This document shows, piece by piece, positions 6,333 to 49,000 of a stretch of DNA of 64,000 nt (the first letter of the stretch is position 1; the number at the start of each line of letters is the position of its first letter). A model generated the notes under the pieces. It saw only the letters and a program-made list of their open reading frames with translations. It had not been told where the DNA came from and ran no database searches. The translations under genes and the position numbers were made by a program. Source of the stretch: Candidatus Bathyarchaeota archaeon (GTDB taxonomy: Archaea > Thermoproteota > Bathyarchaeia > Bathyarchaeales > Bathycorpusculaceae); contig CAWABA010000001.1 in the NCBI GenBank assembly GCA_963780185.1, positions 64,001 to 128,000 on the forward strand, given 5' to 3'.

Positions 6333-6514
6333 AAACTTTTGAAATATTACAAAACTCCAAGCAGAACCAAACCCGATCCCCGCCTTTTCCAACCTAAACT
6401 CGCAAAAGAAACAAACCCCAAACCAAAAAAACAACCTAAAACAAGCCCCAAGCGGAAGCCACCTACCGAGGGAGGGGGTCTATTATTTACAACCAAAACC
6501 CGCCACAAAAATGG
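6333..6514 (+). repeat. Dispersed intergenic element, copy 1 of 5
   Basis: TTTTGAAATATTACAAAA (6337-6354) ... CAACCTAAAACAAGCCCC ... CCGAGGGAGGGGGTCTATTATTTACAACCAAAACCCGCCACAAAAATGG. Confidence 0.9.
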
Positions 6515-6614
6515 AGTTCATCACTTAAACCGGCAAAGCCTCGCTTTTGGTCTATCTGCAAAACACATAATAGTTGGCGTAGCCGATTTGAATGATTATC
6601 GTCGGGGAAACAAC

Positions 6615-8084
6615 GTGAAGGCTCACGTAGTACTTGCAAATCCACCTTATCCAGAAGATGTGCCGCAAGCCGTCTTCATCCCGCTCGGCATCAGCTACCT
6701 GGTCGCGGTGCTTGAGCAAGACGGGTACGAAGTCGACGTGGTTGACTGCCAAGTTGCCAAACTCAGCCAGAAAGATTTGGAGGACAAGTTCAGAAGCCTC
6801 AAAGCCGACATCGTTGGTGCTACAGCTGCAACCGTCACTTACTTCCCCGCCCTGCAAGTCCTAAAAGCAGCCAAAGCCGCCCTGCCCAACTGCGTAACCA
6901 TGATTGGCGGACCACACGTCACGGTTTTGGACGAACGCACCTTCACAGACAGCTCAGACGTCGACATTGTGGTGCGGGGCGAAGGCGAACAAACTATGCT
7001 TGAGCTTGCACGCTTAGTATCCGACGGCAACCTGAAGGGCCTTGGCGAGGTTGCAGGCATCACATTCAAGCGGAACGGGCAAATCTTCCGCACCCCTGAC
7101 AGAACCTTCTTGGAAGATATTGATACGCTTCCTTACCCGGCGCACAAGCACTTTGACGTAAGCCGTTACCGAATCAACGGGAAACTTTACATGCCTATCA
7201 TCACCAGCCGCGGGTGCCCATTCAACTGCGCCTTCTGCTTGGCATCCAAAATGTGCGGCAAAGGCTTTAGGGCACGAAACCCCAAAAAAGTCGTCGACGA
7301 ACTTGAATGGCTAAGAGACACGTTTGGGGCAGGAGCCTTCGCTTTCTACGACGACACATTCACCTCCGACGTGCCGCGGGCAATCGCCATCTGCGACGAA
7401 ATGAAAGCAAGAGGATTCGACATGCCGTGGGATTGCCGAACGCGGGTAGACAAAGTCTCCAAGCCTCTGCTGGACAAGCTTAGGAGCACAAACTGCCAAC
7501 TCATCCATTTCGGCGTCGAGTCAGGCAGCCAACAAATGCTCAACCTCATGCGCAAAGGCACCACAGTTGAGCAGAACGCCGGCGCGATAAAGCTGGCTAA
7601 AGAATCAGACATCCTTGTCGCAATATCCCTTGTCATCGGCTACCCAACCGAAACACCTGAAATGCTCAAGCAAACCGCAGACTTCATCCGCAAAACCAAG
7701 CCTGACTACGTTTACATGTGCGAAGCCGTTCCGTACCCTGGCACTCTGCTTTACGATTACGTGAAGGAGTTGGGGTTGGAGTTTTCGGAAAACTGGAACC
7801 TGTACCATGAGCAAATGCAAGTCTTCAAAAACACTTTGCTGCCGCTTGAGAAGCTGGAGCAAACCAAAAAATCAGTCTATGACAGCATCTTCACGCCTAC
7901 GTATTACCTGCGGATGAGGCAGAGAGGAGATTTTCACAGTCAAATCATGGCTCGTATGGCGCTGAATCATCTTGTCTGGAAGTACAGGGCTACAAGATGG
8001 GCGTTTAGGCAACTGGGTAAAGTTAGACCAGTCAAGAAAAGCCCAGGCGGACACAGTACGCCAAGCAAAGACCAGCAAGACTAA
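6615..8084 (+). CDS. Cobalamin-dependent radical SAM enzyme (#1)
   Basis: NPPYP...PLGISYL, GGPHVT, VRGEGE, SRGCPFNCAFC, FGVESGS, PYPGT. Start at GTG 6615; the longer ORF from 6339 reads through the repeat. Confidence 0.9.
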   Translation: MKAHVVLANPPYPEDVPQAVFIPLGISYLVAVLEQDGYEVDVVDCQVAKLSQKDLEDKFRSLKADIVGATAATVTYFPALQVLKAAKAALPNCVTMIGGPHVTVLDERTFTDSSDVDIVVRGEGEQTMLELARLVSDGNLKGLGEVAGITFKRNGQIFRTPDRTFLEDIDTLPYPAHKHFDVSRYRINGKLYMPIITSRGCPFNCAFCLASKMCGKGFRARNPKKVVDELEWLRDTFGAGAFAFYDDTFTSDVPRAIAICDEMKARGFDMPWDCRTRVDKVSKPLLDKLRSTNCQLIHFGVESGSQQMLNLMRKGTTVEQNAGAIKLAKESDILVAISLVIGYPTETPEMLKQTADFIRKTKPDYVYMCEAVPYPGTLLYDYVKELGLEFSENWNLYHEQMQVFKNTLLPLEKLEQTKKSVYDSIFTPTYYLRMRQRGDFHSQIMARMALNHLVWKYRATRWAFRQLGKVRPVKKSPGGHSTPSKDQQD

Positions 8085-8122
8085 AAAATCAGCGGCAGAG
8101 GCAAACAGCCAACTTTTGGCAT

Positions 8123-10762
8123 TTACTGTGGCGCTGTTGCAGCAGCCGATGTTTCTTGAGTTTTCTTTCTGTTTGCATAGCTTGCCCCAAAGAGTGCGAT
8201 GAGGGCGACGGCGGCGATAACGGCGACTACTATTACTATGTCGTGTCCCATGGCAACGTTGTCTGTCGACGCAGGGGCAGACGCTTGGGCGCTGAAGCCT
8301 TCGGAGAAGCAGTAAATGTTCCAGTCGTTGCATCCGATGTACAGCATGCCGTCAGCTATGGTTGGCGAGGACCAGCTGCTGGAGGGCGTGTAGCCAGTGG
8401 TGATTCTTTCGCCGTTTTTGGTTGTATCCAAGATGAGGATGTGGCGTTCGCTGGTTGCCAAATAGATTTTCCCGTCAGCGTAGGAAGGCGAAACGTAAAG
8501 TTCGTCGCCTGTGTAGGCGCTCCAAACCACGTGTCCGTTGGTTGCGTTGAGGCAAACTATGTTGAAGATGTCGAGGATGTAGAGGTTGCCGTCCACGTAA
8601 ATCGGGGAGGAAACGATGAATTCGGTGGCTCTGGTGTTGATGAAGCTCCATACAAGCTTGCCCGTCTGAGCGTTCACGGCGTAGTAAGCTCCGAAGTCAG
8701 AGGCTGCAAACACCATGCCTGCTGCAACTGAGGGAGAACCAAGCATCTCTGTGCCTCCGAGGAACGAGTGCAAATAAGGAATCGTGAAGTTCCACATAAC
8801 CTGCCCCGAAGCTGCGTCCAGTTTGAAGAGCATTCCGGTTGACGGCTGCTGTGCAGTGAAGTAGACGGCGCCATCCGAGAAGGCTGGTGAGCCCTCGATT
8901 GGTCCGCCCGCAGGAGTCTTCCAAACCACCGCGCCCGTGTCCGCGTTCAACGCGTATAGGTTGCCGTCTAAGGAGCCGATGTAAACCATGCCAGCCGAAA
9001 CCACGGGTGAGGAGGTCAGCATCAAGTTGGCGTATGTGTAATGCAGGTTGCTGCCGACGTAGGTGTGCCAGTTGAGTGCGCCGTGGTCAGCGCTTAAGCA
9101 GTAAACGTAGCCGTCGTCACTTTCAACGTAAACCAAACCGTTTACAACAGCAGGAGAATCTTCAATCGAGCCTCCGGTAGCAAACTTCCAGATGAGCCTT
9201 CCGCTCAACGCATCAAGGGCATAAACGTTCTTGTCCTGTGAACCCGCATAAACCACTCCGTTGACAAGGGACGGCGAAGAAATAACTGACCCGTCGGTTG
9301 TAAACTTCCATGCCACCGTAAGGTTCGAAGGACCCACAGAGGCGGTGGAAGAATGCGATGCGTCAGCCCTAAACATCGTCCAATTGCTAACAACTGAGGA
9401 TTCAATCGGGATCAGCTGGGGCGTCGGCGTCGCCGTGGCAGCTGGGGTGGGGGTCGGAGAACTGGAAGGCGTCGACACCGGAGTGCCGCCGGATCCTATC
9501 GCCCACAGTTCGTCGTTTGTTGAGTACTCTGTTCCTGATGTTGTGTCAACGGCGGAGGTCACTTGGCCTGGGATGATGTACAAGTTTCCGTACGCAACTA
9601 TGGCGGATTCCCTTGGAGCCAGCGCTTCAATTGGAAGCGTCCAGATGACGTTGCCGTTATAGGCGTTTAAGCACGCGAATTGGGAAATTTGTGCGGGACC
9701 ATTGTATGCGGCATGTTGGCCTGTGGTAAGGTAGATTTTTCCGTCTGCAACGGTGGGCATTCCTGGCCACATGAAGTCGGTGTCTGGGCTTCTGTATTTC
9801 CATTGTAGGGCGCCGGTTTTTTCGTTCAAAGCGTACAGGTACCCGTCTTTGTTCATTTCGTAAACGGTTCCGTAGGCGATGGATGGTCCCGTTGTGAAGT
9901 ATCCGTTGGGGTCGGATGGTGGCGTGTATGTCCACATGATTTTGCCGTCGGCAGCGTTGAAGCAGTACATGGTGTTGTCGTCTGTTCCACCTCTGAAGAA
10001 GAAGCCGTCAGAGTAGGCGCCGTCAAAAATCATCGGTCCCTTCGTAAGCGTGTCCCAAACGATTGCACCCGTCGAGGCATTAAGCGCCAACTGCTGGTTT
10101 TCAAAGGAGCCTGCGAAAACTAAGCCGTCGCCGACTGTTGTTCCGATGCCTGCTTGGCCTCCACCTGGAATGTAGGCTGTCCATGCCACGGTGGGTGGTT
10201 TTGATGGGTCAGCGAAGTTCCAGGCGATGATGTAGGAGTTGTCTTTTACGTAGAACATTTTTGTTTCGGGGCTGTAGACGTTGGAGGTGAAGATTCCTGT
10301 GTCAGCGCAGAACGAGGTGCTGGTCCAAAGGATTTTGCCTGTGGATGGGTCAAGACAGCTGCCTTCCACCACCAAGTGGGAAGGATCGATTTCGTAGGCT
10401 ATTGGCCACGTCTTATTGAGCGGAATTATGGTGCTCCACGCAATTTGCCCAGCTTGGTTTACGGCGACAAGGGAGGTGTTGGTTCCGACGAAGATTAGTC
10501 CGTCGAAGGCTGTTAGGTCCGGTTGTATGCCGGGTATATTGGCTTTCCAAAGTACGCTGGAAGTGCTGGGGGCTGGTCCCGCTGAGTAACGGGTAAATGC
10601 TTCGTTTCCTTGGAATTGTGGCCAGTCATACTGATTCAAATTTGAATTTGTGCTGTTGCTTGCCTGAGCTTTCGCATTGATCTGCAAAGTTGAAATTGAC
10701 GCGAAAAATGACGAAGCAACAAGTACTGTGAGAATAGCTATAACTAAGATTTTTTTGAGAAT
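8123..10762 (-). CDS. Secreted, membrane-anchored double PQQ-like (BamB-type) beta-propeller protein
   Basis: WPQFQGN and WTMFRAD domain starts, many SSP.V..G.VY.GS.D..YAL.A.TG...W blades, P/T linker and C-terminal TM helix. The frame extends upstream of the ORF start (10687) through a signal peptide. Confidence 0.85.
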   Translation of the reverse strand: MLKKILVIAILTVLVASSFFASISTLQINAKAQASNSTNSNLNQYDWPQFQGNEAFTRYSAGPAPSTSSVLWKANIPGIQPDLTAFDGLIFVGTNTSLVAVNQAGQIAWSTIIPLNKTWPIAYEIDPSHLVVEGSCLDPSTGKILWTSTSFCADTGIFTSNVYSPETKMFYVKDNSYIIAWNFADPSKPPTVAWTAYIPGGGQAGIGTTVGDGLVFAGSFENQQLALNASTGAIVWDTLTKGPMIFDGAYSDGFFFRGGTDDNTMYCFNAADGKIMWTYTPPSDPNGYFTTGPSIAYGTVYEMNKDGYLYALNEKTGALQWKYRSPDTDFMWPGMPTVADGKIYLTTGQHAAYNGPAQISQFACLNAYNGNVIWTLPIEALAPRESAIVAYGNLYIIPGQVTSAVDTTSGTEYSTNDELWAIGSGGTPVSTPSSSPTPTPAATATPTPQLIPIESSVVSNWTMFRADASHSSTASVGPSNLTVAWKFTTDGSVISSPSLVNGVVYAGSQDKNVYALDALSGRLIWKFATGGSIEDSPAVVNGLVYVESDDGYVYCLSADHGALNWHTYVGSNLHYTYANLMLTSSPVVSAGMVYIGSLDGNLYALNADTGAVVWKTPAGGPIEGSPAFSDGAVYFTAQQPSTGMLFKLDAASGQVMWNFTIPYLHSFLGGTEMLGSPSVAAGMVFAASDFGAYYAVNAQTGKLVWSFINTRATEFIVSSPIYVDGNLYILDIFNIVCLNATNGHVVWSAYTGDELYVSPSYADGKIYLATSERHILILDTTKNGERITTGYTPSSSWSSPTIADGMLYIGCNDWNIYCFSEGFSAQASAPASTDNVAMGHDIVIVVAVIAAVALIALFGASYANRKKTQETSAAATAPQ

Positions 10763-10992
10763 TGATAGTACCCCCTAATACCAAACATTTGCACATCTCT
10801 AATTAAGAGATTGACGCCTTGCCACCAGTCACTTATTGACAGTTGATTTCACTATAAACCTTACGGAAACCCCCTGCTTGCGCCTCGTGGCATAAAAAAA
10901 GCAGGAAAATGCTGTTTTGGCGAAAAATGAAAACAAGTGAGCTACCGCACAATCTTTTTTAGGTTGAAAGGAAACCTTAACATAAATATTGA

Positions 10993-12090
10993 ATGGGCGA
11001 GAGGGTGGATTTTGGCTTGACGAATAAAGGTCCTTTACTTATGACTTCTTGGAGGGCAACAGGCGCATGTAACGCCCGCTGCAAATACTGCAACGTCGAC
11101 GCCAACGGCTCCAAAGCCCCCAGGGAACTCACAACTCAAGAAGCCTTCCACCTTGTGGATGAAGTGGCAAAGTTCGGCGTCCGCTGGTTCGGCATCAAAG
11201 GCGGCGAACCACTCACACGCCCAGACATCTTTGAAATCACCAAATACGCCAAAAGCAAAGGCCTAAACGTTTGCCTGCTCACCAACGGCGCCTTCGTCGA
11301 CGGCTCCATCTACGACAACCTCGTCAGAGACCAAATCTGGACCAGCGTCAGCATCGACGGACCTGAAGAAATCAACGATCAACTCCGCGGCAAAGGCAGC
11401 TACCGCAAGGCGTTGGCCGCCATCGAGAAACTCAGCAAGGGCAAAATCCTCAACGGCTTAGCCTGCGCCATAACCACCATAAACTACCAGCATCTTGACC
11501 ATGTCTGCGAGTTGGCGGAGAAGTACCACGCGAACTTCGTCTGGTTCAACCATCTTGTCCCCAGCGGGAGAGCCAAGGAAATGGCTGACCTTACCCCCTC
11601 GCCTGAACAGTATGAGTGGGTGCTCAACCACATTTGGGACCTCACCGAAAAATACGAGGGCAAATTCGAAATCCACGTTCACTGCCCCCACTTTGCCCGC
11701 GTCGTCAAAATGCGCGGCATCCCAAACTTCGATGAATGGTACGAGCACAAGTTCCACGGCAAATGCACCTACTTCGCTTTCGGCGGCTACGTTTCCGTCA
11801 CGGAGAACGGCGACCTCATCCCATGCTTCTACACGGACCTCACACCCACCGAGCACCAGCGGCTGGGCAACATCCGAAACAAATCGTTGCAGGATGCATG
11901 GAAAGATGTCAAAGCCTCACCGTTCTACAGCAGCTTCCAAGACCGCAACCTACTCAAGGGCAAATGCGGAGTATGCGAGTACCGTGAAATCTGCGGAGGA
12001 TGCAGAAACCGCGCGTACGCTTACACAGGCGACATGTACGCTGAGGACCCTGCATGCGTTTACATCCCTGAAAGCCTGCGCAAGAAGTAG
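10993..12090 (+). CDS. Radical SAM/SPASM protein, AhbD/NirJ-like
   Basis: CNARCKYC, GGEPL, SIDG; C-terminal GKCGVCEYREICGGCRNRAY...DPAC SPASM cysteines. Confidence 0.85.
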   Translation: MGERVDFGLTNKGPLLMTSWRATGACNARCKYCNVDANGSKAPRELTTQEAFHLVDEVAKFGVRWFGIKGGEPLTRPDIFEITKYAKSKGLNVCLLTNGAFVDGSIYDNLVRDQIWTSVSIDGPEEINDQLRGKGSYRKALAAIEKLSKGKILNGLACAITTINYQHLDHVCELAEKYHANFVWFNHLVPSGRAKEMADLTPSPEQYEWVLNHIWDLTEKYEGKFEIHVHCPHFARVVKMRGIPNFDEWYEHKFHGKCTYFAFGGYVSVTENGDLIPCFYTDLTPTEHQRLGNIRNKSLQDAWKDVKASPFYSSFQDRNLLKGKCGVCEYREICGGCRNRAYAYTGDMYAEDPACVYIPESLRKK

Positions 12091-12159
12091 CCCCGACTTT
12101 TCCATCTTTTAAGAGAAAACCTCTTTATTCCTTAAGACCCGAGTTAGATAAGAGCAGAA

Positions 12160-14437
12160 ATGAAAGCAGCCGCCTTTGTGTTCTGACTGTGCTGTTTTTG
12201 GCTTCAGCCATTTTGGCAAGCGTTGCCTCCGCAGAACAGCCCAGCGGCAGGTGCGTGGCCAATGTTTCACGGTGACCTCAACGCATTCGGGCGCTTCAAA
12301 TTCTCAGGCGTCCGAAGACGAACCAGACTCTGTGGAAATTTAATACGGGCGGTCAAGTGGATTCGCCCACTGTTGTCGGCGGCGTGGTTTACGTTGGCTC
12401 ATTTGACCACAAAATCTACGCTTTTAACGCTTCCAACGGCAGCGGAATTGTGGGGTTCACTTACGGGCGGAATCGTGATTTCTCGTCCCGCGGTTGTAGA
12501 CGGCGTGGTTTACGTGGGTTCAGAGGACCATAACCTCTACGCCTTGGACGCTCGAAACGGCGTTCAACTGTGGAATTACACCGCGGGATACTATGTTGAT
12601 TGCGACCCCGCTGTCGCCAACGGGGTAGTTTACTTTGGCTCCGAAGACCACAACGTCTACGCCGTCAACGCCGCAACAGGCGCTTACATATGGAACTACA
12701 CGACTGGAAACAAAATCATGATGTCCTCCCCCACAGTTAGCAACGGAATAGTTTACATCGGCTCAGAAGACAACAAAATCTACGCCCTAAACGCATCCAA
12801 CGGCGCCTTAATTTGGAGTTACACAACAGGCGGCCAAGTGGCTTCTTCTCCAGCCGTCAGCAACGGCGTAGTGTACGTGGGCTCACGACGATGGCACCCT
12901 TTACGCGTTAAATGCTGACAGCGGCAAATCAATCTGGAACTTCACAACTGGAGCAGCCATCTACTCTTCCCCCTGCGTAGGCAACGGATTAGTCTACGTG
13001 GGTTCAACAGACACCAAAGTTTACGCATTAAATGCCGCAAACGGAAAATCCGTTTGGAAATTCGCAACGGGCGCGGCAGTAGCTTCTTCTCCAACCTTTG
13101 ACGGCGGCGTGGTTTACGTCGGGTCAGAAAACAGCATAGTTTACGCCTTTGACGCTTCAAACGGCGGTTTGCTTGTGGAACTACACGACTGGGGACATGG
13201 TTATTTCCCATCCTGCAGTGGCTCAAGGCGTGGTTTATGTTGGCGGTTGGGACGGCAAACTTTACGCCTTAAACGCTGCAGACGGCAAGCTATGTTTGGA
13301 GTTTTGCGACTGGCGGCGAGATTGATTCTTCCCCGACCGTGTCTGGCGGCTTAGTGTATGTTGGTTCCCATGACGGCACAGTGTACGCTTTGAATGCTTC
13401 CACGGGAATGGTTGGCTACAACTTGGAGATGCATAACAACGTTGTTTGGAGCTACACGACCGAGGGCATGATTATGTTTTCTTCGCCGCGGTTGCCGACG
13501 GCAAAGTTTACGTGGGCTCCTACGACGACAACGTTTACGCTTTGAACGCTTTGACAGGCGCTTTGATTTGGAGCTTCAAAACGGGTGACTCAGTGGTTTC
13601 TTCGCCTGCAGTGGAAAACGGCGTGGTCTATGTTGGCTCGGAAGACCATAAAATCTACGCTTTAAACGCCTCCGACGGCAAGCTTGATATGGCAGTTCAC
13701 CACTGGCGGCCAGATAACGGTGTCTTCTCCCGCAGTCTACGACGGCAAAGTCTACATTGGCTCAAACGACGAAAACGTCTACTGCCTTAAACGCTTCAAA
13801 CGGAACCCTCATGTGGAAGTACGCGACAGACGGCTACGTGGTTTCTTCCCCTGCCGTGGCAAACGGGCATGGTTTACGTGGGCTCATACGACCACAAAAT
13901 TTACGCTTTAAACGCCTTAAGCGGCAAGCTTGTTTGGAAATATGCCACAGGCGGAGGCGTTGCATCGTCGCCTGCATTAGCCGACGGCTTAGTCTACGTT
14001 GGCTCGGCAGATGACAAGGTTTATGCTTTGGATGCATCCGACGGCAAAGCTCATGTGGAGCTACATAACGGGCGGGCAAGTTGCGTCTTCGCCTGCTGTT
14101 TCAAACGGAATTGTTTACGTCGGCTCATACGACGGCAACGTTTATGCTCTTAACGCCAAAACAGGCGCATAAATCTGGAGCTACGCAACTGGAGAGGAAT
14201 GGTGGTTTCTTCGCCAGCCATGGCCGACAACGCCGTTTACGTTGGCTCATACAACAACATGCTCTATGCCTTCGGCTCACTCATTCAACCACAACATCGG
14301 TTCAAACGGCATACGCAGCTGAACAATTTGCTGTCGTTGCAGTGGTTTTAGCGGCGATTGTCACTGCCGCAACGCTGGTTGCTACCAGATTTCTCAAGAA
14401 AAAAGGAAAAAAATTCACAGCGTCATGTTTTGAGTGA
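12160..14437 (+). CDS. PQQ-like beta-propeller repeat surface protein, heavily frameshifted
   Basis: Signal-like start at ATG 12160, WPMFHGD, many tandem SSPAV.NG.VYVGS.D.KIYALNA blades scattered over all three + frames, and C-terminal TM plus KKKGKK. Confidence 0.75.
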
Positions 14438-14451
14438 GAATGCATGAAGGT

Positions 14452-15194
14452 CTATTTTTCGACGAGTTCAGCTTTGGTTATGTCGAGAACCGCGAAGCCT
14501 TTCCTTTTCACCTTGCGGCTTTGAACGATTTTGAGGCGCTTCTTAAACAACGGGGCATCGGTGACAAGCGTGTGGAACTCGATATTGCTTACCGCCGTTC
14601 CCGTTTCCTTGCTTTTGCTGCGAATCGCCGCCAAAAAGTCGGCATCCACTTTTCGCCCAAGCCAGTCTTCACTCAAAAAGTCAGTGTCAACAACGATTAA
14701 CGTTGCTTCAAACCCGCTCTGGGTGAAAGCCTCGATGTTCGCGTCTTCGCCGATGCCTTTGAGCGGAAAAATCATCTTCACCTTTAGCTCTTCACAGATT
14801 GGGGTAAGCATCGACATGTGGACTGCCGCTTGGTCTTCTTCGGCGCCCCACGCAATTCCCTCAACAGGCGGATTCAGGCTGCTAACCGTCGCCTTGAACT
14901 GGTCAACAAACCCCATCATCGAAACTTCAGGCTGAACAATCGGCAAACCCAACGCCTTCGCCTGCAACGCGATGATTTCCGGGTTAACTTCATGCGGAAC
15001 ATCCTTGTAGGGCTTCATCCTCGACAGCTTCATCAGAACCGAACCCGCCAAACTTTTGATTCTGTTAGGTTTGGGATGCGGAGGTTCTTTGAATATGAAG
15101 TTTATGAGTGTAGTAACGTTGTTTCCTTCCGAAATGGCGCCTGAGCAAGCTAAGTAGCTGTCTTTGCCGCCAGTCCACATTGAGGCAACTCGCA
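14452..15194 (-). CDS. Dph6-like (diphthine-ammonia ligase family) PP-loop ATPase, paralog 1
   Basis: VASMWTGGKDS PP-loop, QAKALGLP, WLGRKVD, EFHTLVTDAPLFKKRL. Confidence 0.8.
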
Positions 15195-15382
15195 AAATCT
15201 TCCCCGCAAAAAGCGTCAACCCCACCTTATAAAAACGTAACGGTGGAAGGGTATTTTTAAATAAAAATACTGAAATTCTCAATATTAAATTGGGTTTAAA
15301 AGAAAATGAACGTTAGAACGTTGAGACATTGAGACTAAACTTAGCTTCATAATCTTAAGGAATCTTGGCATTTTTCAGTCGT

Positions 15383-15985
15383 TCAGTCTTTTTGTTCCTT
15401 TTTTGAATCGCAGTTCCAATCAAACCGCTTCTCAAAATTAGACCGTAAATTCTTATCATCTTTAAGCTGTTTAACATAAGTCTCAAAATGCTTTTTTAAT
15501 TCCAAAACAAGCGTATGAGGGTTAACAATAAGTCTTTCCCCTTCTTCAGTTGGAGATATAGGTGGGAAACCTTCACCCAAAAGCATAATGTCGCTTTCAG
15601 TTAAGCCATGATGGTAAAGACCGCACCTAACATTATAATACATCTTTTCAGGAATCCAAGGATACTGTTTACATAATTCTGGGAAAACCATCTTTAATCC
15701 TTCAGCAAAATATTTGCGTGCTCCGCCAATCTTACAAGATCCATCTCTGTACTTGGCAATCATTTCAAAATAACTCATGAGTATGTCTAAAGTGGCATAA
15801 CCTGAGCCTACAATCTGCACTATTATAATTGTTCCATTATTTATTTTTACACCGTTAATAACCATATCCGCAATATCCAATTGCCATCCAGTAACTCTTT
15901 CATAAAAGATTTGTATTTTATTATCAAGTGTAAGCGCCTCTGGGAAATCGCTCCTTTTATGAAACGGTGTTATCATGTAATCCAA
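15383..15985 (-). CDS. Hypothetical AT-rich protein with HEPN-like Rx4H motif
   Basis: All-helical-looking 200 aa ORF containing YYNVRCGLYHHG. Confidence 0.55.
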   Translation of the reverse strand: MDYMITPFHKRSDFPEALTLDNKIQIFYERVTGWQLDIADMVINGVKINNGTIIIVQIVGSGYATLDILMSYFEMIAKYRDGSCKIGGARKYFAEGLKMVFPELCKQYPWIPEKMYYNVRCGLYHHGLTESDIMLLGEGFPPISPTEEGERLIVNPHTLVLELKKHFETYVKQLKDDKNLRSNFEKRFDWNCDSKKEQKD

Positions 15986-16091
15986 TATTATCCCATAGCA
16001 CCAAATTCATTGTTTGCAGATTTAAGACTTATCTCTAAGTTTCTAACCCTTGATTTAATCAATTGATTAATAGGAATTCGTGGAATGATTT

Positions 16092-16385
16092 TTAGGCATT
16101 TAAGATTCTTGCAACCTCTTCTGCTGGGATTGTTCTCACTGTCTCGTTTGTGATTGCGTTTTTGACATATACCAACCCATAAAGTGAAATATGCTTAGAT
16201 TGAGACTTTTGAAGACGGAAACCTGTTGGTAGATTCAATCTTTTTCTAAGTTCTTTCAAGTTAGGGTCAGTTGAGCCACGTTTACTTTTGGTGAAAAGGG
16301 TTATGTGCTTCTTTGCGGCGACTGCCGCTAATCTAAGTCTACCATCTGGCGGAAGTTTTATTTCACAGGTAGGCTCTTTTTTCAC
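16092..16385 (-). CDS. Small basic hypothetical protein
   Basis: 97 aa K/R-rich ORF co-oriented with neighbours in the AT-rich island. Confidence 0.45.
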   Translation of the reverse strand: MKKEPTCEIKLPPDGRLRLAAVAAKKHITLFTKSKRGSTDPNLKELRKRLNLPTGFRLQKSQSKHISLYGLVYVKNAITNETVRTIPAEEVARILNA

Positions 16386-16437
16386 ACCAAATCCCTTCTG
16401 ATAATTTCATTATTGTATGCGATTCAGTTTTAAGCTT

Positions 16438-16842
16438 TTACTGCTTGATTATATTACCGAAATTGAGGTTTTTGGGAAATGTTATTTTTATGCCTTCTTT
16501 TTGGTTGAAATCAAACCTTATAGAATTTACAATACTACAAAAAAACTCTAAGTCTCTAACGATGTAAATCCAGTCATTTGAGAGCTCTTTGGTTAGGGTG
16601 TGGTATAGATTCATTTTATTTTGCAATGTTATTGAGAATTTAACCACTTTATCCAAGTCATAATTCTTAGAATCAGAATAAGAAGCGATTGTATTAACCA
16701 ACTGCAAAATAGTTTGAATATTTTCCTTTATCACCAAAGAATTCTTTGGGTCATTCTCTAACCTGAGAATTTGCAGAGTTGCCCCACATATCAACTCTTT
16801 ATCCTTAACAAGCATCAAGCGTTCTGTTTCGGAAATCTGCAT
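16438..16842 (-). CDS. Hypothetical protein
   Basis: 134 aa ATG-start ORF in the AT-rich island; no recognised motif. Confidence 0.5.
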   Translation of the reverse strand: MQISETERLMLVKDKELICGATLQILRLENDPKNSLVIKENIQTILQLVNTIASYSDSKNYDLDKVVKFSITLQNKMNLYHTLTKELSNDWIYIVRDLEFFCSIVNSIRFDFNQKEGIKITFPKNLNFGNIIKQ

Positions 16843-16878
16843 AGCGGTATCTTTACAGTTTCAACCTTTTAGTTTTTG

Positions 16879-17613
16879 CTATTTCTTATTTTTGTCTTTT
16901 AATCGGTTTCCCTCTTCATGCAGTTGCATTAGCTTTTTCAGCGTTTGAGTCTTAAAATCAGGCTCAATGATTTCGGCAAAATTGACTATTAATAGGTTTA
17001 TTAACGAAAATTCAACATGTGGATAAAATGCAATTCTTGCAATAGATGGTTTGAATTCTGGTTTATGAGCCACATGAAGGCTACTATTTGAAAGGTCAAC
17101 TGCCATTAAAGAACTAATTGATTTAAAATCAGAATGAACGTAACCACAAAGTATTCTATACGCTTCTAAAAATTGTTCGTAATTTCCAATAGCGTTAAGT
17201 TCTTTCTTTATGGTATGAATTTTTAGTTCTCCCTTAAGCCATTTTAAGGCGTTCTCATTGGCTATTTGTTTGTCTTCACATAATACAACATACATTATAA
17301 CGCATAAATTTTCAAACAAGCTTCTTTGAATTATTTCTGTGTCATAATAATAACCTTTCATGTCTAAATCAAAACAAGCTTTCAAAGTCATTATTGCCCT
17401 TGAACTTAACATTAAAACAACCGAGTCTCTATAATCAAAAATTATTTCTCGGGTTATCGATTGATTACCTATATGCTCATTTAAACTATACAATAACTCG
17501 TAAGTCTCAATATGATTTCTTATTTGGTCTCCAAACAATGCCTTAGATTTTTCAATATTTTCTTTCTCTGCTTCAGATATTTCCCCAAAAGGTGTTGGGC
17601 TTTTGCTCAGCAT
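16879..17613 (-). CDS. DUF5677-like (HEPN-related) protein
   Basis: IIQRSLFEN and AYRILCGYVHSD match the R..(F/Y)E and Y..L...VH pattern of this family. Confidence 0.6.
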   Translation of the reverse strand: MLSKSPTPFGEISEAEKENIEKSKALFGDQIRNHIETYELLYSLNEHIGNQSITREIIFDYRDSVVLMLSSRAIMTLKACFDLDMKGYYYDTEIIQRSLFENLCVIMYVVLCEDKQIANENALKWLKGELKIHTIKKELNAIGNYEQFLEAYRILCGYVHSDFKSISSLMAVDLSNSSLHVAHKPEFKPSIARIAFYPHVEFSLINLLIVNFAEIIEPDFKTQTLKKLMQLHEEGNRLKDKNKK

Positions 17614-18062
17614 GCTCTCAGTATTCTATCACTTTGCATTTAGTTTTTGCTATCAAGAAAGAAACTTGGCTTAATCTTATGGAGATGAGAAAGACCTAAC
17701 TCAGAAACATCTATCTTTCCTTTAACCACTTAACCAACCTATGAGATTCTCGTTTATTGTCTGATTGTTCAAGGGGCGATCTATCTTCGGCACTATGCTT
17801 GAAGCCAACAATGAGATATTTCATGCGTTATAGAATATTCTATAGCTTCTTTAGCTAATATTGCCCGATAGGCGGGTGAAGCATATACGGAAAGCATCTA
17901 CAGTGAAAAGTGGGTTAACGGTAAGCGGTTGAAGATGCTCAACTTTCTTTCTTCAAGCTATCTTCCGCCTTTAGCAAAAGGTTAAAATCCCAAAAATAAT
18001 ATGCTTAAGAACTGTAACCTCGGCAGAATGACTAATCATTCTACTTGCGCAGCCAAACGTGT

Positions 18063-19469
18063 ATGTTGATGACGACATCTAAAACGAAAATTGCTTTAGT
18101 TAATACACCGCTCCTCGAAGGGGCAGGTGACCACCCGCTTTTCGCGCCGCTTGGCTTAGCGTACATGGCGGCTGTGCTGGAGCAGAACAATTTTGAGGTA
18201 AAAGTCTTCGACTGCCCCATATACGGCATCGACCACGAGAGCTTAAAGAAGGAACTAAGCGTTTACCAACCCACCGTAGTCGGTGTGGGCGCAATGACGC
18301 AGACGTTTGAGTCAGCCCTCAAAACCGCTTACGCCGCAAAAGAAGCCTGCCCAGACGCCAAAATCGTTATGGGCGGACCACACGCAACCTTCCAAGACAG
18401 GGAAATCCTCGCACAGGAAGCCGTGGTTGACATTATCGTAAGAGGCGAAGGCGAAGAAACCCTTCTGGAACTTGCAAAGCAGCCTCAGTTGCAAAATATC
18501 GGCGACATCAAAGGGATAACTTACCGAAAAGACAACCAAATCGTGCAGACACCCACTCGACCCTTCATCCAAAACCTAGACGCTCTTCCACGCCCAGACT
18601 ACAAACAGATTCCAATCGAAAAATACCGAATAAACGGAAAAAGGATACTGCCGATAATCTCAAGCAGGGGATGCCCGTTCCAATGCAGCTTCTGCGTAGC
18701 CTCCGAAATGTTCGGCAGAACCTTCCGCGCAAGAAGCGCTGGCAACGTCCTCGACGAGATTGTGTGGCTTAAAAACGAGTATGGAGCAGAAGGAATCCAG
18801 TTTCAAGACGACACGTTTTCCTTCGACAAGAAAAGAGCCATTGACATCTGCGACGGAATGATTGAGCGCAAAGTAAACTTGAAGTGGGGCTGCGGAACCC
18901 GAGCAGACGTCACCACAAAGGAGCTGCTGGCTAAGATGCATAAGGCTGGCTGCGACGAAATCTGCTTCGGTGTCGAGTCAGGTTGCCAAAGAATCCGGGA
19001 TTCGCTGAAAAAGAAGGTCACTACTGAGCAGTGCGAAAACGCCATTAAATGGTCGAAGGAAACAGGCATATTCACAACCGTTTCAATCATCCTCGGGTAC
19101 CCGGGCGAAACAAGGGAAACCGTCCAGGAAAGCCTTGACTTTGTCCGAAAAGTTGAGCCAGACAGCGTATGGCTAAACATTCCCACGCCCTACCCCGGCA
19201 CAGAGCTACGTGCGCTGGTGCAGAGCAAGGGCTGGAAGATGACTAACGACTGGAACCGCTACAACACCATGAACGCCATCTTCGAAGACCCTGACCTGCC
19301 AGCGGAAGAAGTACTCAAGGCAAGAATGGAGTTCTACAACAAATTCTACTCGGTCAAGTACTTCATGCGCCAAGCCGTGAAGGGCTATTTGCGCGGCAGC
19401 GTCTACAGCAAAATCATGGCAAGAACAGCCGCGGGCTACATACTCATGCGAACCAGAAGCAAAGTCTAA
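18063..19469 (+). CDS. Cobalamin-dependent radical SAM enzyme (#2)
   Basis: PLGLAYMAA, GGPHAT, RGEGE, SRGCPFQCSFC, FGVESG, TPYPGT. Confidence 0.9.
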   Translation: MLMTTSKTKIALVNTPLLEGAGDHPLFAPLGLAYMAAVLEQNNFEVKVFDCPIYGIDHESLKKELSVYQPTVVGVGAMTQTFESALKTAYAAKEACPDAKIVMGGPHATFQDREILAQEAVVDIIVRGEGEETLLELAKQPQLQNIGDIKGITYRKDNQIVQTPTRPFIQNLDALPRPDYKQIPIEKYRINGKRILPIISSRGCPFQCSFCVASEMFGRTFRARSAGNVLDEIVWLKNEYGAEGIQFQDDTFSFDKKRAIDICDGMIERKVNLKWGCGTRADVTTKELLAKMHKAGCDEICFGVESGCQRIRDSLKKKVTTEQCENAIKWSKETGIFTTVSIILGYPGETRETVQESLDFVRKVEPDSVWLNIPTPYPGTELRALVQSKGWKMTNDWNRYNTMNAIFEDPDLPAEEVLKARMEFYNKFYSVKYFMRQAVKGYLRGSVYSKIMARTAAGYILMRTRSKV

Positions 19470-21040: not shown

Positions 21041-21222
21041 AAACTTTTGTAATATTACAAAACTTCAAGCGGAAACAATGGTTTTCCCTGTTTCTTTAGC
21101 TCGCAAAATCTTAAAGGATTTAAGCCTAAACCAAAAAATCAACCCAAAACAAGCCCTAAGCGGAACCCGCCTACCGAGGGAGGGGGTCTAGTATTTACAA
21201 CCAAAAACCACCACAAAAATGG
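21041..21222 (+). repeat. Dispersed intergenic element, copy 2 of 5
   Basis: Perfect palindrome TTTTGTAATATTACAAAA (21045-21062) ... CAACCCAAAACAAGCCC ... CCGAGGGAGGGGGTCTAGTATTTACAACCAAAAACCACCACAAAAATGG. Confidence 0.9.
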
Positions 21223-23104: not shown

Positions 23105-23142
23105 AACTTTAAACAAATAAAAAATAAAGGAAGGAGTTTTTT

Positions 23143-29386: not shown

Positions 29387-29571
29387 CCATATTTGTGTTG
29401 GGTTTTGTGATTGTAAAATAATAGACCCCCTCCCTCGGTCGGTGGCTTCTGCTTGGGGCTTGTTTTGGGTTGATTTTTTGGTTTGGGGCTTGATTTTGTT
29501 GTGGGTTTAGGTTGGGTTGGGCTGGGATGGGTGGGTTTTCTGTTTGGGGTTTTGTAATATTACAAAACTTG
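29387..29571 (-). repeat. Dispersed intergenic element, copy 3 of 5
   Basis: GTTTTGTAATATTACAAAAC (29549-29568) perfect palindrome; minus strand reads CCGAGGGAGGGGGTCTATTATTTTACAATCACAAAACCCAACACAAATATGG. Confidence 0.9.
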
Positions 29572-34007: not shown

Positions 34008-34188
34008 TCATTTTTGTGGTGGGTTTTGGTTGTAAAAATGGGGGACCCTCCCGTAGTAGGCTGCTTCTGTTGGCTTGTTTTGGGTTGCTTTTTGGGTTTG
34101 GGGTATTGTTTCTATTTGTGGGCTTGGCTTGGTTGCTCCGAGAAAAATGGGCGTTTTTGCGTGGAGTTTTGGAATATTCCAAAAGTTT
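34008..34188 (-). repeat. Dispersed intergenic element, copy 4 of 5
   Basis: Perfect palindrome TTTTGGAATATTCCAAAA (34167-34184); minus strand reads CAACCCAAAACAAGCC ... CGGGAGGGTCCCCCATTTTTACAACCAAAACCCACCACAAAAATGA. Confidence 0.88.
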
Positions 34189-46404: not shown

Positions 46405-47220
46405 TTGCTTCAAGACCCAACGCTTAAAGAAAAAATTCATCAGGCAAACATATCCGTTCACCATCTTGAAGCACAATACTATGAACTTCTTCACCCCGAA
46501 GTGTACTCTAAACAGGAACAAAAAAGAATAACAGCTAAACTGAAAATGATCGACAAGCTTGTGACAGATAACCGCAAGATGGCTCTGGACTTTGGAGCAG
46601 GCACAGGCAACCTGACAGGCAAGCTTTTGCACTTGGGCTACACGGTTACAGCTGTAGATATCTCGCAGGAAATGTGCGGGATCCTGCAGAAAAAATACTT
46701 TGCCTACATGCAAAGCAAAAAGTTAACCGTGGTTTGCTCGCCTATTGAGGAGTTGACTTTTGAAGAGGGGCAATTTGACTTAATCACATGTTACTCTGTG
46801 CTGCATCATTTGCCCGACTACGTCGGCGCCCTCCGTTGCCTCTCTGTTTTTCTTAAGGAAGGCGGAGTCATCTACCTTGACCATGAAGCATCCCCTTTCT
46901 ACTGGAAAAATGAGCCAACCATGCTTGCAAGCCTTGTGAAAGGAATCTATTTGCATTCAAACCCGCTGTTAAACAGCTTGTACTTTCAAATGACTGGTTT
47001 GAGGGTTCCTTCAATCGATTATGAGTTGTCGGATTATTGGCATAAAAAAGAGCATGCGCTAGACCACGGCAGCATCGGGCAAGTGTTCAAAGACGAAAAC
47101 TACGAGTTTTCAACACGCACAGACTACTATGAAACCAGCACTTGGATTCCCAGCCCACTATCCATCATTTACCGTCTGTTGTGCAGCCCCGAAATGAGCT
47201 GTTGGATAGCCAAAAAGTAG
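46405..47220 (+). CDS. Class I SAM-dependent methyltransferase
   Basis: ALDFGAGTG, AVDISQEM, FDLITCYSVLHH, LKEGG. Confidence 0.9.
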   Translation: MLQDPTLKEKIHQANISVHHLEAQYYELLHPEVYSKQEQKRITAKLKMIDKLVTDNRKMALDFGAGTGNLTGKLLHLGYTVTAVDISQEMCGILQKKYFAYMQSKKLTVVCSPIEELTFEEGQFDLITCYSVLHHLPDYVGALRCLSVFLKEGGVIYLDHEASPFYWKNEPTMLASLVKGIYLHSNPLLNSLYFQMTGLRVPSIDYELSDYWHKKEHALDHGSIGQVFKDENYEFSTRTDYYETSTWIPSPLSIIYRLLCSPEMSCWIAKK

Positions 47221-48625
47221 CTAGGCGATTCCTTCGGTTTTGTGTGCGCCGGGGTTTAGTCTGCGTTTGGCAAAGTTTATGGCGCCTTCACGTCTGACCC
47301 GCTTGATTATCTGTTTGGGTGAGCGGTGGAAATCTATGAAGAATCTTCGCTGAACTGCAAGCAGCGAGTTGTAGTCCCACTCTTTGGTTTTCACCGCGAG
47401 CAAGAAGTCGTCGAGTTGCGTGTAGCTTTTTGAGTCTAAGAGTTCTTGGTAGAGTCGGCTGTCCGGGTTAGCTATGAAGACGTTGAAAATGCACCAGTCG
47501 GGGCTCAAGCTTCTTGGCAAACTTTGAGCGACATCTCCATGTCCTTGAGCGTTTCGTCGGGAACCCCAAGCATAAACGAGCAAGCCGTCTGTATCCCGAG
47601 TTTGCGGCAAAGCCTAAAAGCGGTTTCTATCTGCTCAAGCGTTGTGTTTCGCCCGATGCGCTGCAGAACCCGTTGCGAACCCGATTCCACGCCAAACCAA
47701 ATCGTCTTGCAACCTGCTTTCTTCATGGTCTCCAAAAGTTCTTGATTAACTAAATCGACGCGGGTGTCGCATACCCACTCTAAATCCAGCTTGTTCTCAA
47801 CCATCAAGTTGCATAGTTGGACGGTTTGGTTTTTTCTGAGGGTAAAGTTGTCGTTGATGAAGTAGATTCCTTTGGTGCCGTACCTGCTTTGCAAATCCTT
47901 AATTTCGCCGATGACCCGCTGCGGACTGAAACCTCGGCAGATGTTTCCCCAGAGCTTTTTGGTTTCGCAGAAGCCGCAGTTGTAGACGCATCCCCGCGAG
48001 ATGCTCATGATGTCTGCGGGTTTAACGCCTAAGTATTCAACTGTCCTGTCGTAGAGCTCCAACTGCAGAAGGTGTCTTGCTGGGTAGGGGATTTCATCCA
48101 TGTTTTCGATGAATTTAGGCGGGTTCTTGATGTTTACGCCCAGATGCTTGCAGGCGACGCCGGGTATCGTCAAGGCGGCGGGTTCGTCGCCGTTTGTTAT
48201 GCAGGTGGCAAGCTGGGTCATTGCCGCGTTCGCCTTCGCCCATGACGACGTAGTCGATTTCGGGGTTGTCCAGCAGGCTGTCGGGTACGTAGCTGGCGTG
48301 CCATCCGCCGACGACGATTTTGCAGTCTGGGCAGGGTTTGTTTGATGGCTTTTGCGGTTTCTATGCAGCGTGCGTAGGTTGCTGAGCCGCAGGTGATGCC
48401 GACGATTTGCGGGTTAAGCTTAGACACAAACTGCTTGACTTCGTCAATGGGCTTCTTTTGCAGGTAGTTGTCGAGCATCTGCACCTCAAAGCCCGCTTTC
48501 TCAAGAGCCGCAGCAACATACATCAAGCCTATCGGAGGCAGCCGTTTGCCATGGTACCACGCGCTGTTTTCGGGAGGAGCAGTAGTCATCAAAAGAATCA
48601 AATCAGCAACCCCCAACCCAAACAC
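47221..48625 (-). CDS. Cobalamin-dependent radical SAM enzyme (#6, frameshifted into three ORFs)
   Basis: LLMTTAPPE...RLPPIGLMYVAA, SRGCVYNCGFC, FGVESGS, DWCIFNVFIANP. Confidence 0.85.
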
Positions 48626-48759
48626 CCAGCAAACCCAACGACACCTCTGTCCCCCATGAAACGTTTGCTAACCCAAAACAGAAGGCAACCTAATAGCTTT
48701 AACTGAAACCCACACCCCGCCCCTCCGCCGCCGAAAAATGCTGAAATGGCAGATTCAAC

Positions 48760-49000
48760 CCATATTTGTGATGAGGTTTTGGTCACAAATACTAGACCCC
48801 CTCCCTCGGTCGTTTGTATCCATCTTTACGTTGGTATTTTGAGGTAAAAATGGGGTACCCTCCCCATGTTGGCGGCTTTTGCTTGGGGCTTGTTTCGGGT
48901 TGCTTTTTTGGTTTAGGTTGTAATTCTGTTGTGGGCTTGGATTGGAAAGGCGTGGGAAAGAGGCGTTTTTGTCTTGCAGTTTTGTAATATTTCAAAAGTT
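48760..49000 (-). repeat. Dispersed intergenic element, copy 5 of 5, with a duplicated 3' module
   Basis: Palindrome at 48980-48997; core 48820-49000 has GGGGAGGGTACCCCATTTTTAC; a second module at 48760-48811 reads ACCGAGGGAGGGGGTCTAGTATTT...CACAAATATGG. Confidence 0.88.

What the first reader, a model, noticed from the sequence alone, without database searches (positions are those of the whole stretch)
6333..49000. Five-copy ~182-bp intergenic element with rigid box spacing
Seen: copies at 6333-6514(+), 21041-21222(+), 29387-29571(-), 34008-34188(-) and 48820-49000(-). Each has an 18-bp palindrome TTTTG(T/A/G)AATATT(A/C)CAAAA, a diverged A/C-rich stretch, a CAACC.AAACAAGCC-like box, a GGGAGGG box and a 3' TTTAC...ATG tail. 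By hand count, the offset from palindrome start to GGGAGGG is 133, 133, 133, 132 and 133 bp, although the first ~70 bp after the palindrome are barely alignable. All copies are intergenic. I saw no terminal inverted repeats, target-site duplications or transposase. Inference: length appears to be conserved more than sequence, as expected for a multi-site nucleoprotein platform (chromosome organisation, segregation, recombination or replication site, or a long-range promoter) or a structured ncRNA. I do not recognise it as a described family.
Basis: partly seen in the sequence, partly recalled or inferred. Interest (0 to 1): 0.88.

Follow-up and report, generated by a model that had tools for sequence, protein, structure and literature searches.

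The report
Modular intergenic repeat family in Bathyarchaeia
The five look-alike stretches belong to a much larger family of short non-coding repeats scattered between the genes of one group of soil archaea; they keep a fixed internal spacing and mark places where the genome has been rearranged, but what they do is still unknown.

Summary
The five copies align over about 185 nt. They are the full-length form of a modular family with 58 loci in this 2.75-Mb genome: 22 full copies, 26 3' halves starting at the A/C-rich core box, and 26 hairpin units of about 50 nt, often in tandem. The palindrome-to-core-box spacing is 81-85 bp in 56 of 58 copies from six genomes. The family matches no Rfam model. 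It is not a globally structured RNA. It lies in every orientation relative to its neighbours. It is gained or lost at orthologous sites and sits at synteny breakpoints. Matches occur in 43 of 101 genomes of the genus and in 1 of 135 outside it. I found no terminal inverted repeats, target duplications, transposase or multi-copy IS. At orthologous loci the palindrome (94%) and core box (85%) are better conserved than the flanks (about 60%). Best reading: a lineage-specific mosaic intergenic repeat comparable to bacterial BOX/BIME/ERIC elements. Its function is unresolved. A small-RNA gene family or a protein-binding platform remain live rivals.

The parts
6333..6514 (+). Full-length copy 1. Palindrome 6337-6354, core box 6420-6447, G-box 6470-6478, TTTAC 6486-6490, ATGG 6511-6514. 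Lies between a divergent 189-aa wHTH-like gene (5715-6284, -) and a B12-binding radical SAM gene (6615-8084, +).
21041..21222 (+). Full-length copy 2, upstream of a B12-binding radical SAM gene (21349-22740). That gene has its own promoter-like box, conserved across species.
29387..29571 (-). Full-length copy 3, between the 3' ends of two convergent genes (26941-29340 + and 29630-30751 -). The element is missing from this site in the relatives examined.
34008..34188 (-). Full-length copy 4, with a GGGAGGGTCCCCC + ATTTTT variant of the 3' unit. Lies at a synteny breakpoint relative to relatives.
48820..49000 (-). Full-length copy 5, with a type-A 3' unit (GGGGAGGGTACCCC + ATTTTTAC). The consensus scan flags this unit as terminator-like.
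48757..48812 (-). Extra tandem type-B 3' unit directly after copy 5 (GAGGGAGGGGGTCTAG TATTTGTGA-N-TCACAAATATGG, 10-bp stem).

Best explanation
The five copies are full-length members of a genus-restricted, non-coding, mosaic intergenic repeat family. It is comparable in kind to bacterial BOX, BIME/REP and ERIC elements.

A full element has four parts:
1. An 18-bp palindromic head, TTTTG(T/G)AATATT(A/C)CAAAA.
2. A spacer of about 62 nt that is A/C-rich and length-constrained.
3. A core box of about 28 nt, AAACCAAAAAAGCAACCCAAAACAAGCC.
4. One to three 3' units of about 55 nt. Each has a G-rich box followed by an A/T-rich hairpin that places T-runs on both strands.

Shown:
- The modules occur in different combinations.
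- Copies are gained and lost at orthologous sites.
- Copies are reshuffled by recombination whose crossover maps in or near the core box.
- They mark inversion and translocation breakpoints between related genomes.
- The palindrome and core box are kept more similar than the flanking DNA.

Inferred:
- The family spreads and is homogenised by recombination or gene conversion, or by an enzyme not yet recognised, rather than by a classical transposase.
- The palindrome and core box are recognised by a protein at a fixed distance of about 83 bp.
- The hairpin/T-run units act in cis as transcription punctuation (terminator or 3'-end protection) for whichever neighbour reads into them.
For: - Family size and modularity: 82 hits at E<1e-3, namely 22 full copies, 26 halves mostly starting at model position 80-92, 26 units and 8 others. 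These merge into 58 loci with architectures F 17, H 16, HU 10, U 8, FU 5 and UU 2.
- The same 3' units also follow unrelated 5' modules.
- Context independence: neighbour orientation classes are 18 / 14 / 12 / 12. Among 114 flanking ORFs no gene family recurs.
- Gain and loss: copy 3 sits in 304 nt where G047 has 59 nt, and G003, G052 and G040 also lack it. Two sites that hold a full copy in G115 are empty in G000.
- Rearrangement: for 25 full copies of four relatives both flanks mapped to G000. In 8 of them the flanks map to two different places. In 5 of those 8, both places lie beside a G000 element.
- The parent switch maps at or near the core box.
- The three block boundaries that differ between G000 and G047 carry copies 1, 2 and 4.
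Outside the genus, 1 of 135 genomes has a match.
- Constraint: identity at 10 orthologous pairs is 0.94 for the palindrome, 0.85 for the core box, 0.76 for the spacer and 0.59-0.61 for the flanks. Spacing is 81-85 bp in 56 of 58 copies.
- Hairpins: 76 of 79 units have 5-13-bp stems, with alternative arm pairs TTTACAT/ATGTAAA and TTTGTGA/TCACAAA.
- Palindrome symmetry: the symmetric forms GG..CC (22) and GT..AC (19) make up 41 of 58 copies.
- No mobilising gene: no Y1, IS110 or RT hit, and no multi-copy repeat of 300 nt or more.
Against: - No mechanism of spread was demonstrated. Empty-site alignments give no clean ends, and the inserted blocks are composite.
- Conservation of the palindrome and core box at orthologous loci argues for a host function. 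That fits the rivals (sRNA, protein platform) at least as well as a selfish repeat.
- The terminator role is weak. Element loci are not depleted from divergent intergenic regions (12 of 56). The element's 3' side faces a convergent gene in 33 of 58 loci, which is close to half. The terminator-like scan found 32 sites against 24.1 +/- 5.6 in shuffles. Type-B units have only T3 on the forward strand.
- Wobble pairs in the stems are symmetric (GT 21, TG 21), so nothing shows which strand, if any, acts as RNA.
- There are no expression data.
- The resemblance to BOX/BIME/ERIC is one of architecture, recalled from memory. It is not homology.
Confidence: 0.45

Rival explanations
1. A multi-copy family of small non-coding RNA genes. 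The head (the palindrome, or alternative heads in half copies) drives transcription of an unstructured A/C-rich RNA. This RNA has a variable 5' part and a shared 3' module (core box, G-box, hairpin). The shared module serves as a protein-binding handle or sponge and as the terminator.
For: - Different 5' modules are joined to the same core box and 3' units.
- The forward strand is strongly A/C-rich (A 38%, C 28%, G 16%, T 17%) and predicted to be nearly unstructured (MFE -17 to -30 kcal/mol for about 190 nt). That would suit a single-strand binding platform.
- The asymmetric core box is the best-conserved asymmetric part within the genus.
- Type-A units look like hairpin + T5 terminators on the forward strand.
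- Orientation independent of neighbours fits autonomous transcription units.
Against: - A BRE/TATA matrix learned from the 41 tRNA promoters of this genome does not score the region upstream of the core box above random intergenic DNA for half copies (mean 5.7 against 5.5). For full copies (mean 7.1) the best hits lie inside one spacer subfamily and not at the palindrome.
- The variable regions have no antisense targets in the genome beyond chance; the best are 16-22 nt at E >= 0.002.
- There is no covariation beyond the palindrome.
- 58 of 101 genus genomes have no match, and copy numbers range from 1 to more than 25.
- No RNA data set was available.
Confidence: 0.25
2. A DNA-level nucleoprotein platform. 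A dimeric protein binds the palindrome, and a second site (core box, G-box or hairpin palindrome) is bound at a measured distance. The assembly would serve recombination, chromosome organisation or long-range regulation.
For: - Spacing is rigid in 56 of 58 copies despite sequence divergence.
- The palindrome keeps its symmetry through paired changes: GG..CC 22, GT..AC 19, and UA 12 / GC 7 / broken 3 at one pair.
- The palindrome and core box are the most conserved parts at orthologous loci.
- Rearrangement junctions map to the elements, with the switch near the core box.
- Wobble pairs are symmetric, as expected for double-stranded palindromes.
Against: - The core box has no dyad symmetry, so it does not look like a tyrosine- or serine-recombinase core (read).
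- Crossovers in the longest conserved stretch are equally expected from homologous recombination.
- No candidate protein tracks the elements. The adjacent wHTH-like protein has close orthologues (>=50% identity) in 9 of 101 genomes and not in element-rich G110 or G047. Close orthologues of the two integrases are sporadic, and neither gives any match in G110 or G115.
- Orientation along the 945-kb contig is mixed.
- AA/TT periodicity near 10-11 bp is not dominant; the top periods are 15 and 7.4.
- The patchy distribution within one genus argues against a core chromosomal function.
Confidence: 0.15
3. A portable promoter and 5' leader cassette for the gene downstream, here the B12-binding radical SAM paralogues. 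GGGAGGGGG would act as a Shine-Dalgarno-like box and the terminal ATG as a start codon.
For: - Copies 1, 2 and 5 lie upstream of co-oriented B12-binding radical SAM genes.
- An element has persisted upstream of the copy-2 gene in several species.
- The TATTTAC box lies about 30 nt before the ATGG. I recall this distance as typical for an archaeal TATA box and start site.
Against: - Only 25 of 58 loci have a co-oriented gene downstream, and 18 lie between convergent genes.
- Copy 3 has no downstream gene.
- The radical SAM genes keep their own conserved promoter-like box between the element and the start codon.
- The ATG opens only very short or non-conserved frames, for example five codons after copy 1.
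- The flanking genes share no family.
- The tRNA-derived promoter matrix gives no support.
Confidence: 0.05
4. A classical non-autonomous transposon: a MITE, or an IS200/IS605-type palindrome-associated element, mobilised in trans by a resident transposase.
For: - It is short, multi-copy, intergenic and polymorphic in presence.
- It has subterminal hairpins and lacks terminal inverted repeats and target duplications. I recall these as traits of IS200/IS605 derivatives.
Against: - No Y1 transposase, with the control search ringing in 6 of 14 genomes.
- No IS110 transposase and no reverse transcriptase.
- The one marginal hit to PF07282 (the Pfam model named Cas12f1-like_TNB) lies in a 245-aa ORF that looks like a zinc-ribbon protein.
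- No repeat of 300 nt or more that could be an autonomous partner.
- No terminal inverted repeats, and no clean ends or target duplications at empty sites.
- The genome is 93% complete, so a missing gene cannot be excluded. The Y2 search was uninformative because its control rang nowhere.
Confidence: 0.05

Closest known systems
BOX elements of Streptococcus pneumoniae (recalled from memory, not tested by sequence)
   Same: Short, non-coding, multi-copy intergenic repeats built from modules, one of which occurs in a variable number of tandem copies. No transposase of their own. Able to affect neighbouring genes.
   Different: BOX elements are bacterial and are predicted to fold into stable RNA structures. 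Here the forward strand is A/C-rich and unstructured. The element carries an 18-bp palindromic head at a fixed 83 bp from a core box. The host is an archaeon. No sequence relationship was tested.
REP/BIME mosaic elements of enterobacteria (recalled from memory)
   Same: Mosaic combinations of small hairpin units and linker motifs in intergenic regions. Frequent at gene 3' ends. Sites of rearrangement. Stems kept by paired changes.
   Different: REPs are G+C-rich palindromes of about 35 nt and are linked to a RAYT (Y1) transposase. Here the stems are A/T-rich with loops of 8-20 nt (mostly 10-14 or 18-20). No Y1 gene is present. Nearly half of the copies carry a long non-palindromic body.
ERIC/IRU and Correia-type repeats (recalled from memory)
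   Same: Intergenic repeats of 100-170 bp that are lineage-restricted and of very variable copy number. Some carry promoter- or terminator-like signals.
   Different: Those elements are long imperfect palindromes or have terminal inverted repeats and target duplications. This element has neither.
Archaeal MITEs; a review and surveys appeared in the listing (titles and abstract starts only)
   Same: Small non-autonomous repeats in archaeal intergenic regions.
   Different: MITEs are defined by terminal inverted repeats, target duplications and a related IS. None was found here.

Membership tests
MITE (miniature inverted-repeat transposable element) | Terminal inverted repeats | tested here: not met
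   The two ends of the aligned copies differ: a palindromic head at the 5' end and a hairpin unit at the 3' end.
MITE (miniature inverted-repeat transposable element) | Target-site duplication at insertion sites | tested here: not met
   Three filled-versus-empty comparisons (copy 3, L187, L189) show no clean ends or duplications. The boundaries are blurred by divergence.
MITE (miniature inverted-repeat transposable element) | A related autonomous IS in the genome or lineage | tested here: not met
   Only 20 repeat pairs of 300 nt or more, none multi-copy. No Y1, IS110 or RT hit. The genome is 93% complete.
REP/BIME | Short imperfect palindromic units combined in mosaics | tested here: met
   76 of 79 3' units have 5-13-bp stems. 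The units occur singly or in tandem, after several different 5' modules. The stems are A/T-rich and not G+C-rich.
REP/BIME | Associated RAYT (Y1 HUH transposase) | tested here: not met
   PF01797: 0 matches in G000. The control rang in 6 of 14 genomes.
BOX-like modular repeat | Modular build with one module in a variable tandem number | tested here: met
   Architectures F, FU, H, HU, U and UU, with up to three units at the site upstream of the copy-2 gene in G047.
BOX-like modular repeat | Sequence homology to the pneumococcal boxA/B/C modules | not tested
Any Rfam RNA family | Match to a covariance model | tested here: not met
   0 matches at gathering score in the window. Over 13 element loci (9008 bases) there was one chance-level match at E = 0.57.
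Structured non-coding RNA | Folding energy below shuffles, and covariation | tested here: not met
   z-scores from -0.75 to +0.68 on both strands of the five copies. The consensus structure is the 7-bp palindrome hairpin only. A candidate long-range helix does no better than a 1-nt shift, 128 against 125 of 149 cells.
Site-specific recombination site (dif/att/res type) | Core with dyad symmetry at the crossover point, and a cognate recombinase | tested here: inconclusive
   The crossover maps near the core box, which has no dyad symmetry. The palindrome is symmetric, but in L200 and L195 the crossover is not there. Neither integrase tested tracks the elements.

The most novel reading that the evidence does not exclude
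The elements may not be junk repeats. They could be a genus-specific functional system of a kind not described in archaea. One form would be dozens of small transcription units that make unstructured A/C-rich RNAs sharing a protein-binding 3' handle. The other would be a recombination or architecture module in which a protein complex measures the 83 bp between the palindrome and the core box. Either form would spread and reshuffle the genome without any recognisable transposase.
Probability: 0.2. Interest if true: 0.8.

Novelty: new variant of a known kind. Interest (0 to 1): 0.55.

Why it matters
Bathyarchaeia are abundant, uncultured soil and sediment archaea, and I found nothing in print on their non-coding DNA. 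Two full-text searches found nothing on intergenic repeats in this group.

This family is the main repeat class in a genome with no multi-copy IS element. It marks many of the synteny breaks between related species. It is therefore likely to be a major driver of genome rearrangement in the genus, and a practical source of assembly and binning problems.

Two short boxes are conserved at a fixed distance in copies that have persisted since speciation. This points to a binding factor or RNA function that could be found by pull-down or metatranscriptomics.

If the family spreads without a transposase, it bears on an open question: how BOX- and ERIC-type repeats move.

Tried and rejected
- Rfam: nothing, at gathering score on the window and at E<=1 on 13 loci.
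- tRNA scan of the window: none.
- Global RNA structure: rejected.
- Long-range helix between the spacer TTTTCCC motif and the G-box: 128 of 149 cells pair, but a 1-nt shift gives 125 of 149, so it is no evidence.
- Canonical promoters in the heads: the impression from reading one search was not borne out by a BRE/TATA matrix.
- Antisense targets of the variable region: chance level only.
- Viral origin: the core box is absent from viral contigs. The palindrome alone occurs in 16 viral contigs, without the rest of the element.
- Mobilising genes: Y1 none. One marginal hit to PF07282 (Cas12f1-like_TNB), in a zinc-ribbon-like ORF. IS110 none. Y2 none, but its control rang nowhere, so this is uninformative. 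RT none.
- Tyrosine recombinases: three hits on contig C7. Close orthologues of the two intact ones are sporadic in the genus, and neither gives any match in G110 or G115.
- The wHTH-like protein beside copy 1 as the palindrome binder: rejected as a general partner. Close orthologues occur in 9 of 101 genomes and not in G110 or G047. It is ancestrally syntenic with the copy-2 radical SAM gene.
- Recurrent flanking gene family: none.
- Terminator role from position: no depletion from divergent regions. The consensus scan is not above shuffles.
- Helical phasing of A-tracts: not dominant. The shuffle control ignores relatedness.
- Expression: no RNA holder listed. Three DNA runs with small shares only.
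- Literature: two searches found nothing on such repeats in Bathyarchaeia, and only general MITE papers seen as listings. No paper was read, and supplementary files were not consulted.
- My gene map is a crude greedy set of ORFs of 100 aa or more. Ten of the 58 loci overlap such an ORF; I take these to be spurious or over-extended but did not check them.

Full report
OBSERVATION

In copy 1 the parts can be read directly:
- palindrome TTTTGAAATATTACAAAA at 6337-6354
- A/C-rich core box at 6420-6447
- GGGAGGGGG at 6470-6478
- TTTAC at 6486-6490
- ATGG at 6511-6514

All five copies lie between ORFs. The window is G000:C1:64001-128000 in a 2.75-Mb assembly of 13 contigs. The closest named relatives are MAGs labelled Candidatus Bathyarchaeota or Bathyarchaeia.

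THE FAMILY IS MUCH LARGER AND MODULAR

An HMM of the five copies finds 82 hits at E<1e-3 in the genome:
- 22 full-length copies
- 26 copies that hold only the 3' half, most starting at model position 80-92, which is the core box
- 26 copies of only the last ~50 nt
- 8 other fragments

Merged, these are 58 loci with architectures F 17, H 16, HU 10, U 8, FU 5 and UU 2. One extra unit lies in the window, directly after copy 5 at 48757-48812. Five of the 22 full copies fall in this 64-kb window, where about 0.5 would be expected from genome size.

The 3' units come in two main forms:
- Type A: GGGGTACCCC followed by CCATTTTTAC-N14-GTAAAAATGG.
- Type B: GGGAGGGGGT followed by CTAGTATTTGTG-N12-CACAAATA(CTAG/TGG).

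Of 79 units, 76 have a stem of 5-13 bp. The arm pairs differ between units in a compensating way. G-T and T-G pairs are equally common (21 each), so the stems do not show which strand might act as RNA.

The same units also follow other repeated 5' modules. One is a CTATTTGG..TCTAG motif that often occurs twice, 23 nt apart (59 motif matches).

SPACING

Twenty-two full copies align almost without gaps at 68% mean identity. The stretch after the palindrome is therefore homologous, not unalignable.

In 58 copies that have both a palindrome and a core box, taken from six genomes:
- The distance between the two is 81-85 bp in 56.
- The distance from the palindrome to the hairpin arm is 146-151 bp in 52.
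- The palindrome occurs mainly as two symmetric forms, TTTTGGAATATTCCAAAA (22) and TTTTGTAATATTACAAAA (19). The remaining 17 are asymmetric or degenerate.

WHAT IT IS NOT

- No Rfam family matches.
- Neither strand folds better than shuffled controls; z runs from -0.75 to +0.68.
- The consensus fold of 22 copies is only the 7-bp palindrome hairpin, with one covarying pair (UA 12, GC 7, broken 3).
- A possible helix between the spacer's TTTTCCC and the G-box is not supported. It pairs in 128 of 149 cells, but a 1-nt shift gives 125.
- It is not a leader for a particular gene. The neighbour classes (upstream/downstream gene relative to the element) are same/opposite 18, opposite/opposite 14, same/same 12 and opposite/same 12.
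- The 114 flanking ORFs share no family.
- Copy 3 lies between two gene ends.
- The radical SAM gene after copy 2 keeps its own promoter-like box, TTATTTAGAAAACTATATAAT, in most of the ten relatives aligned there, whether or not an element is present.
- A BRE/TATA matrix learned from the 41 tRNA promoters gives no support for canonical promoters in the heads.
- The variable regions have no antisense targets in the genome above chance.

EVOLUTION

Distribution:
- A sequence-only covariance model finds matches in 43 of 101 genomes of the genus. Full-length copies of 183-187 nt occur in G000, G110, G115, G047, G101 and G059.
- Outside the genus, 1 of 135 genomes of the class has a weak match.
- The core box does not occur in the viral collection.

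Gain and loss:
- The copy 3 site is 304 nt in G000 but 59 nt in G047. It is also short and element-free in G003, G052 and G040.
- Two sites with a full copy in G115 are empty in G000.
- The ends are not clean. There is no duplication, and the extra DNA is composite.

Module turnover at one site, upstream of the copy-2 gene:
- G059 has a full element whose G-box is replaced by CCTATAGACCTACC.
- G047 has a core box plus three units.
- G004 has a core box plus one unit.
- G060 has none.

Rearrangements:
- For 25 full copies of G110, G047, G101 and G115, both flanks could be placed in G000.
- 13 are collinear with an element at the G000 site. In two of these (L184, L198) G000 has only a half copy or a pair of units.
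- 3 are collinear without a significant element, and 1 is ambiguous.
- 8 have flanks that map to two different places. In 5 of those 8, both places lie directly beside a G000 element.
- Sliding identity to the two 'parents' switches at or near the core box.
- Within the window, the blocks 6330-20918 and 21183-33944 are ordered and oriented differently in G047. The three boundaries in G000 carry copies 1, 2 and 4. I infer two inversions between oppositely oriented copies.

Constraint at ten orthologous pairs:
- palindrome 0.94
- core box 0.85
- spacer 0.76
- G-box 0.76
- linker 0.55
- hairpin 0.60
- flanks 0.59-0.61

HOW IT MIGHT MOVE

- No Y1, IS110 or reverse-transcriptase gene was found.
- The Y2 search was uninformative.
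- The one marginal hit to PF07282 (Cas12f1-like_TNB) lies in a zinc-ribbon-like ORF.
- Self-comparison shows only 20 repeat pairs of 300 nt or more and no multi-copy IS.
- Close orthologues of the two intact integrases on contig C7 are sporadic in the genus, and neither gives any match in element-rich G110 or G115.
- The wHTH-like protein next to copy 1 is an old neighbour of the copy-2 radical SAM gene. It is missing from G110 and G047.

INTERPRETATION

The patchy, genus-restricted distribution, the variable copy number, the context independence, the gain and loss, and the module shuffling all point to a mosaic intergenic repeat of the BOX/BIME/ERIC kind. These are my recalled comparisons of architecture, not tested homology.

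Three features are not explained by a purely selfish repeat:
- the fixed spacing
- the symmetric changes in the palindrome
- the conservation of the palindrome and core box at loci that predate speciation

These keep two rivals alive: a family of small RNA genes with a shared 3' handle, and a protein-bound DNA platform.

The hairpin units carry T5 runs on both strands in type A, and on the reverse strand in type B. They are the best candidates for a cis effect such as termination. Positional statistics and a consensus scan do not support this beyond plausibility.

No RNA data were available. Two literature searches found no description of such repeats in this group.

VERDICT

I rate it a new variant of a known kind of element, with moderate interest.

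Noticed in passing
G000:C9:113745-113880 and many other loci, e.g. C12:39415, C6:343930, C7:46020 (none in the window): A second, better-conserved intergenic repeat. It has two CTATTTGG.TC.TCTAG motifs 23 nt apart, followed by AAAACCGTAGGGGTAGC.GGTACGAAAAAAGAAAAC. It is often preceded by an ATGTTGAAG.ATGTTGTTTCAT...GTTGCATTCAAACA module and often followed by a type-B or type-A hairpin unit. The motif has 59 matches with up to 2 mismatches. Several copies are followed by a GTTGATGATGATGGAGTATTTTCC stretch.
   Followed up: partly
window 47505-48625 (-): The B12-binding radical SAM gene downstream of copy 5 is split into two adjacent ORFs. The B12-binding part is 48218-48625 and the Radical_SAM part is 47505-48221. 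This suggests a frameshift or a pseudogene.
   Followed up: no
window 5715-6284 (-): A 189-aa protein with no Pfam match has an N-terminus that reads like a winged helix-turn-helix (by eye). It lies divergent from copy 1. In G004, G059 and G101 (and probably G031 and G043) its orthologue sits beside or close to the copy-2 radical SAM gene. It may be that gene's local regulator.
   Followed up: partly
window 6615-8084, 21349-22740, 29630-30751, 47505-48625: A local cluster of radical SAM genes: three of the B12-binding type and one SPASM type. The copy-2 gene has 14 BLAST paralogues in my crude ORF set.
   Followed up: no
G000:C3:75901-84859 vs C13:17770-26735; C2:10364-17528 vs C9:1-7157: Contig ends overlap at 97% and 95% identity over 9 kb and 7 kb. 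This looks like strain heterogeneity or unmerged contig ends in the assembly.
   Followed up: no
G000:C7:3278-4510: A broken tyrosine-recombinase frame (one TGA), tRNA-Leu (3942-4029), a full-length element (4116-4289) and tRNA-Thr (4434-4510) lie together. This may be the remnant of an integrated element next to a tRNA gene.
   Followed up: no
window 29444-29540 (+), i.e. the reverse strand of copy 3: In one spacer subfamily (copy 3 and C7:148829) the G/T-rich strand carries five or more closely spaced GGG runs (GGGTTGGGCTGGGATGGGTGGG). I recognise this as a G-quadruplex-type motif. Other subfamilies lack it.
   Followed up: no
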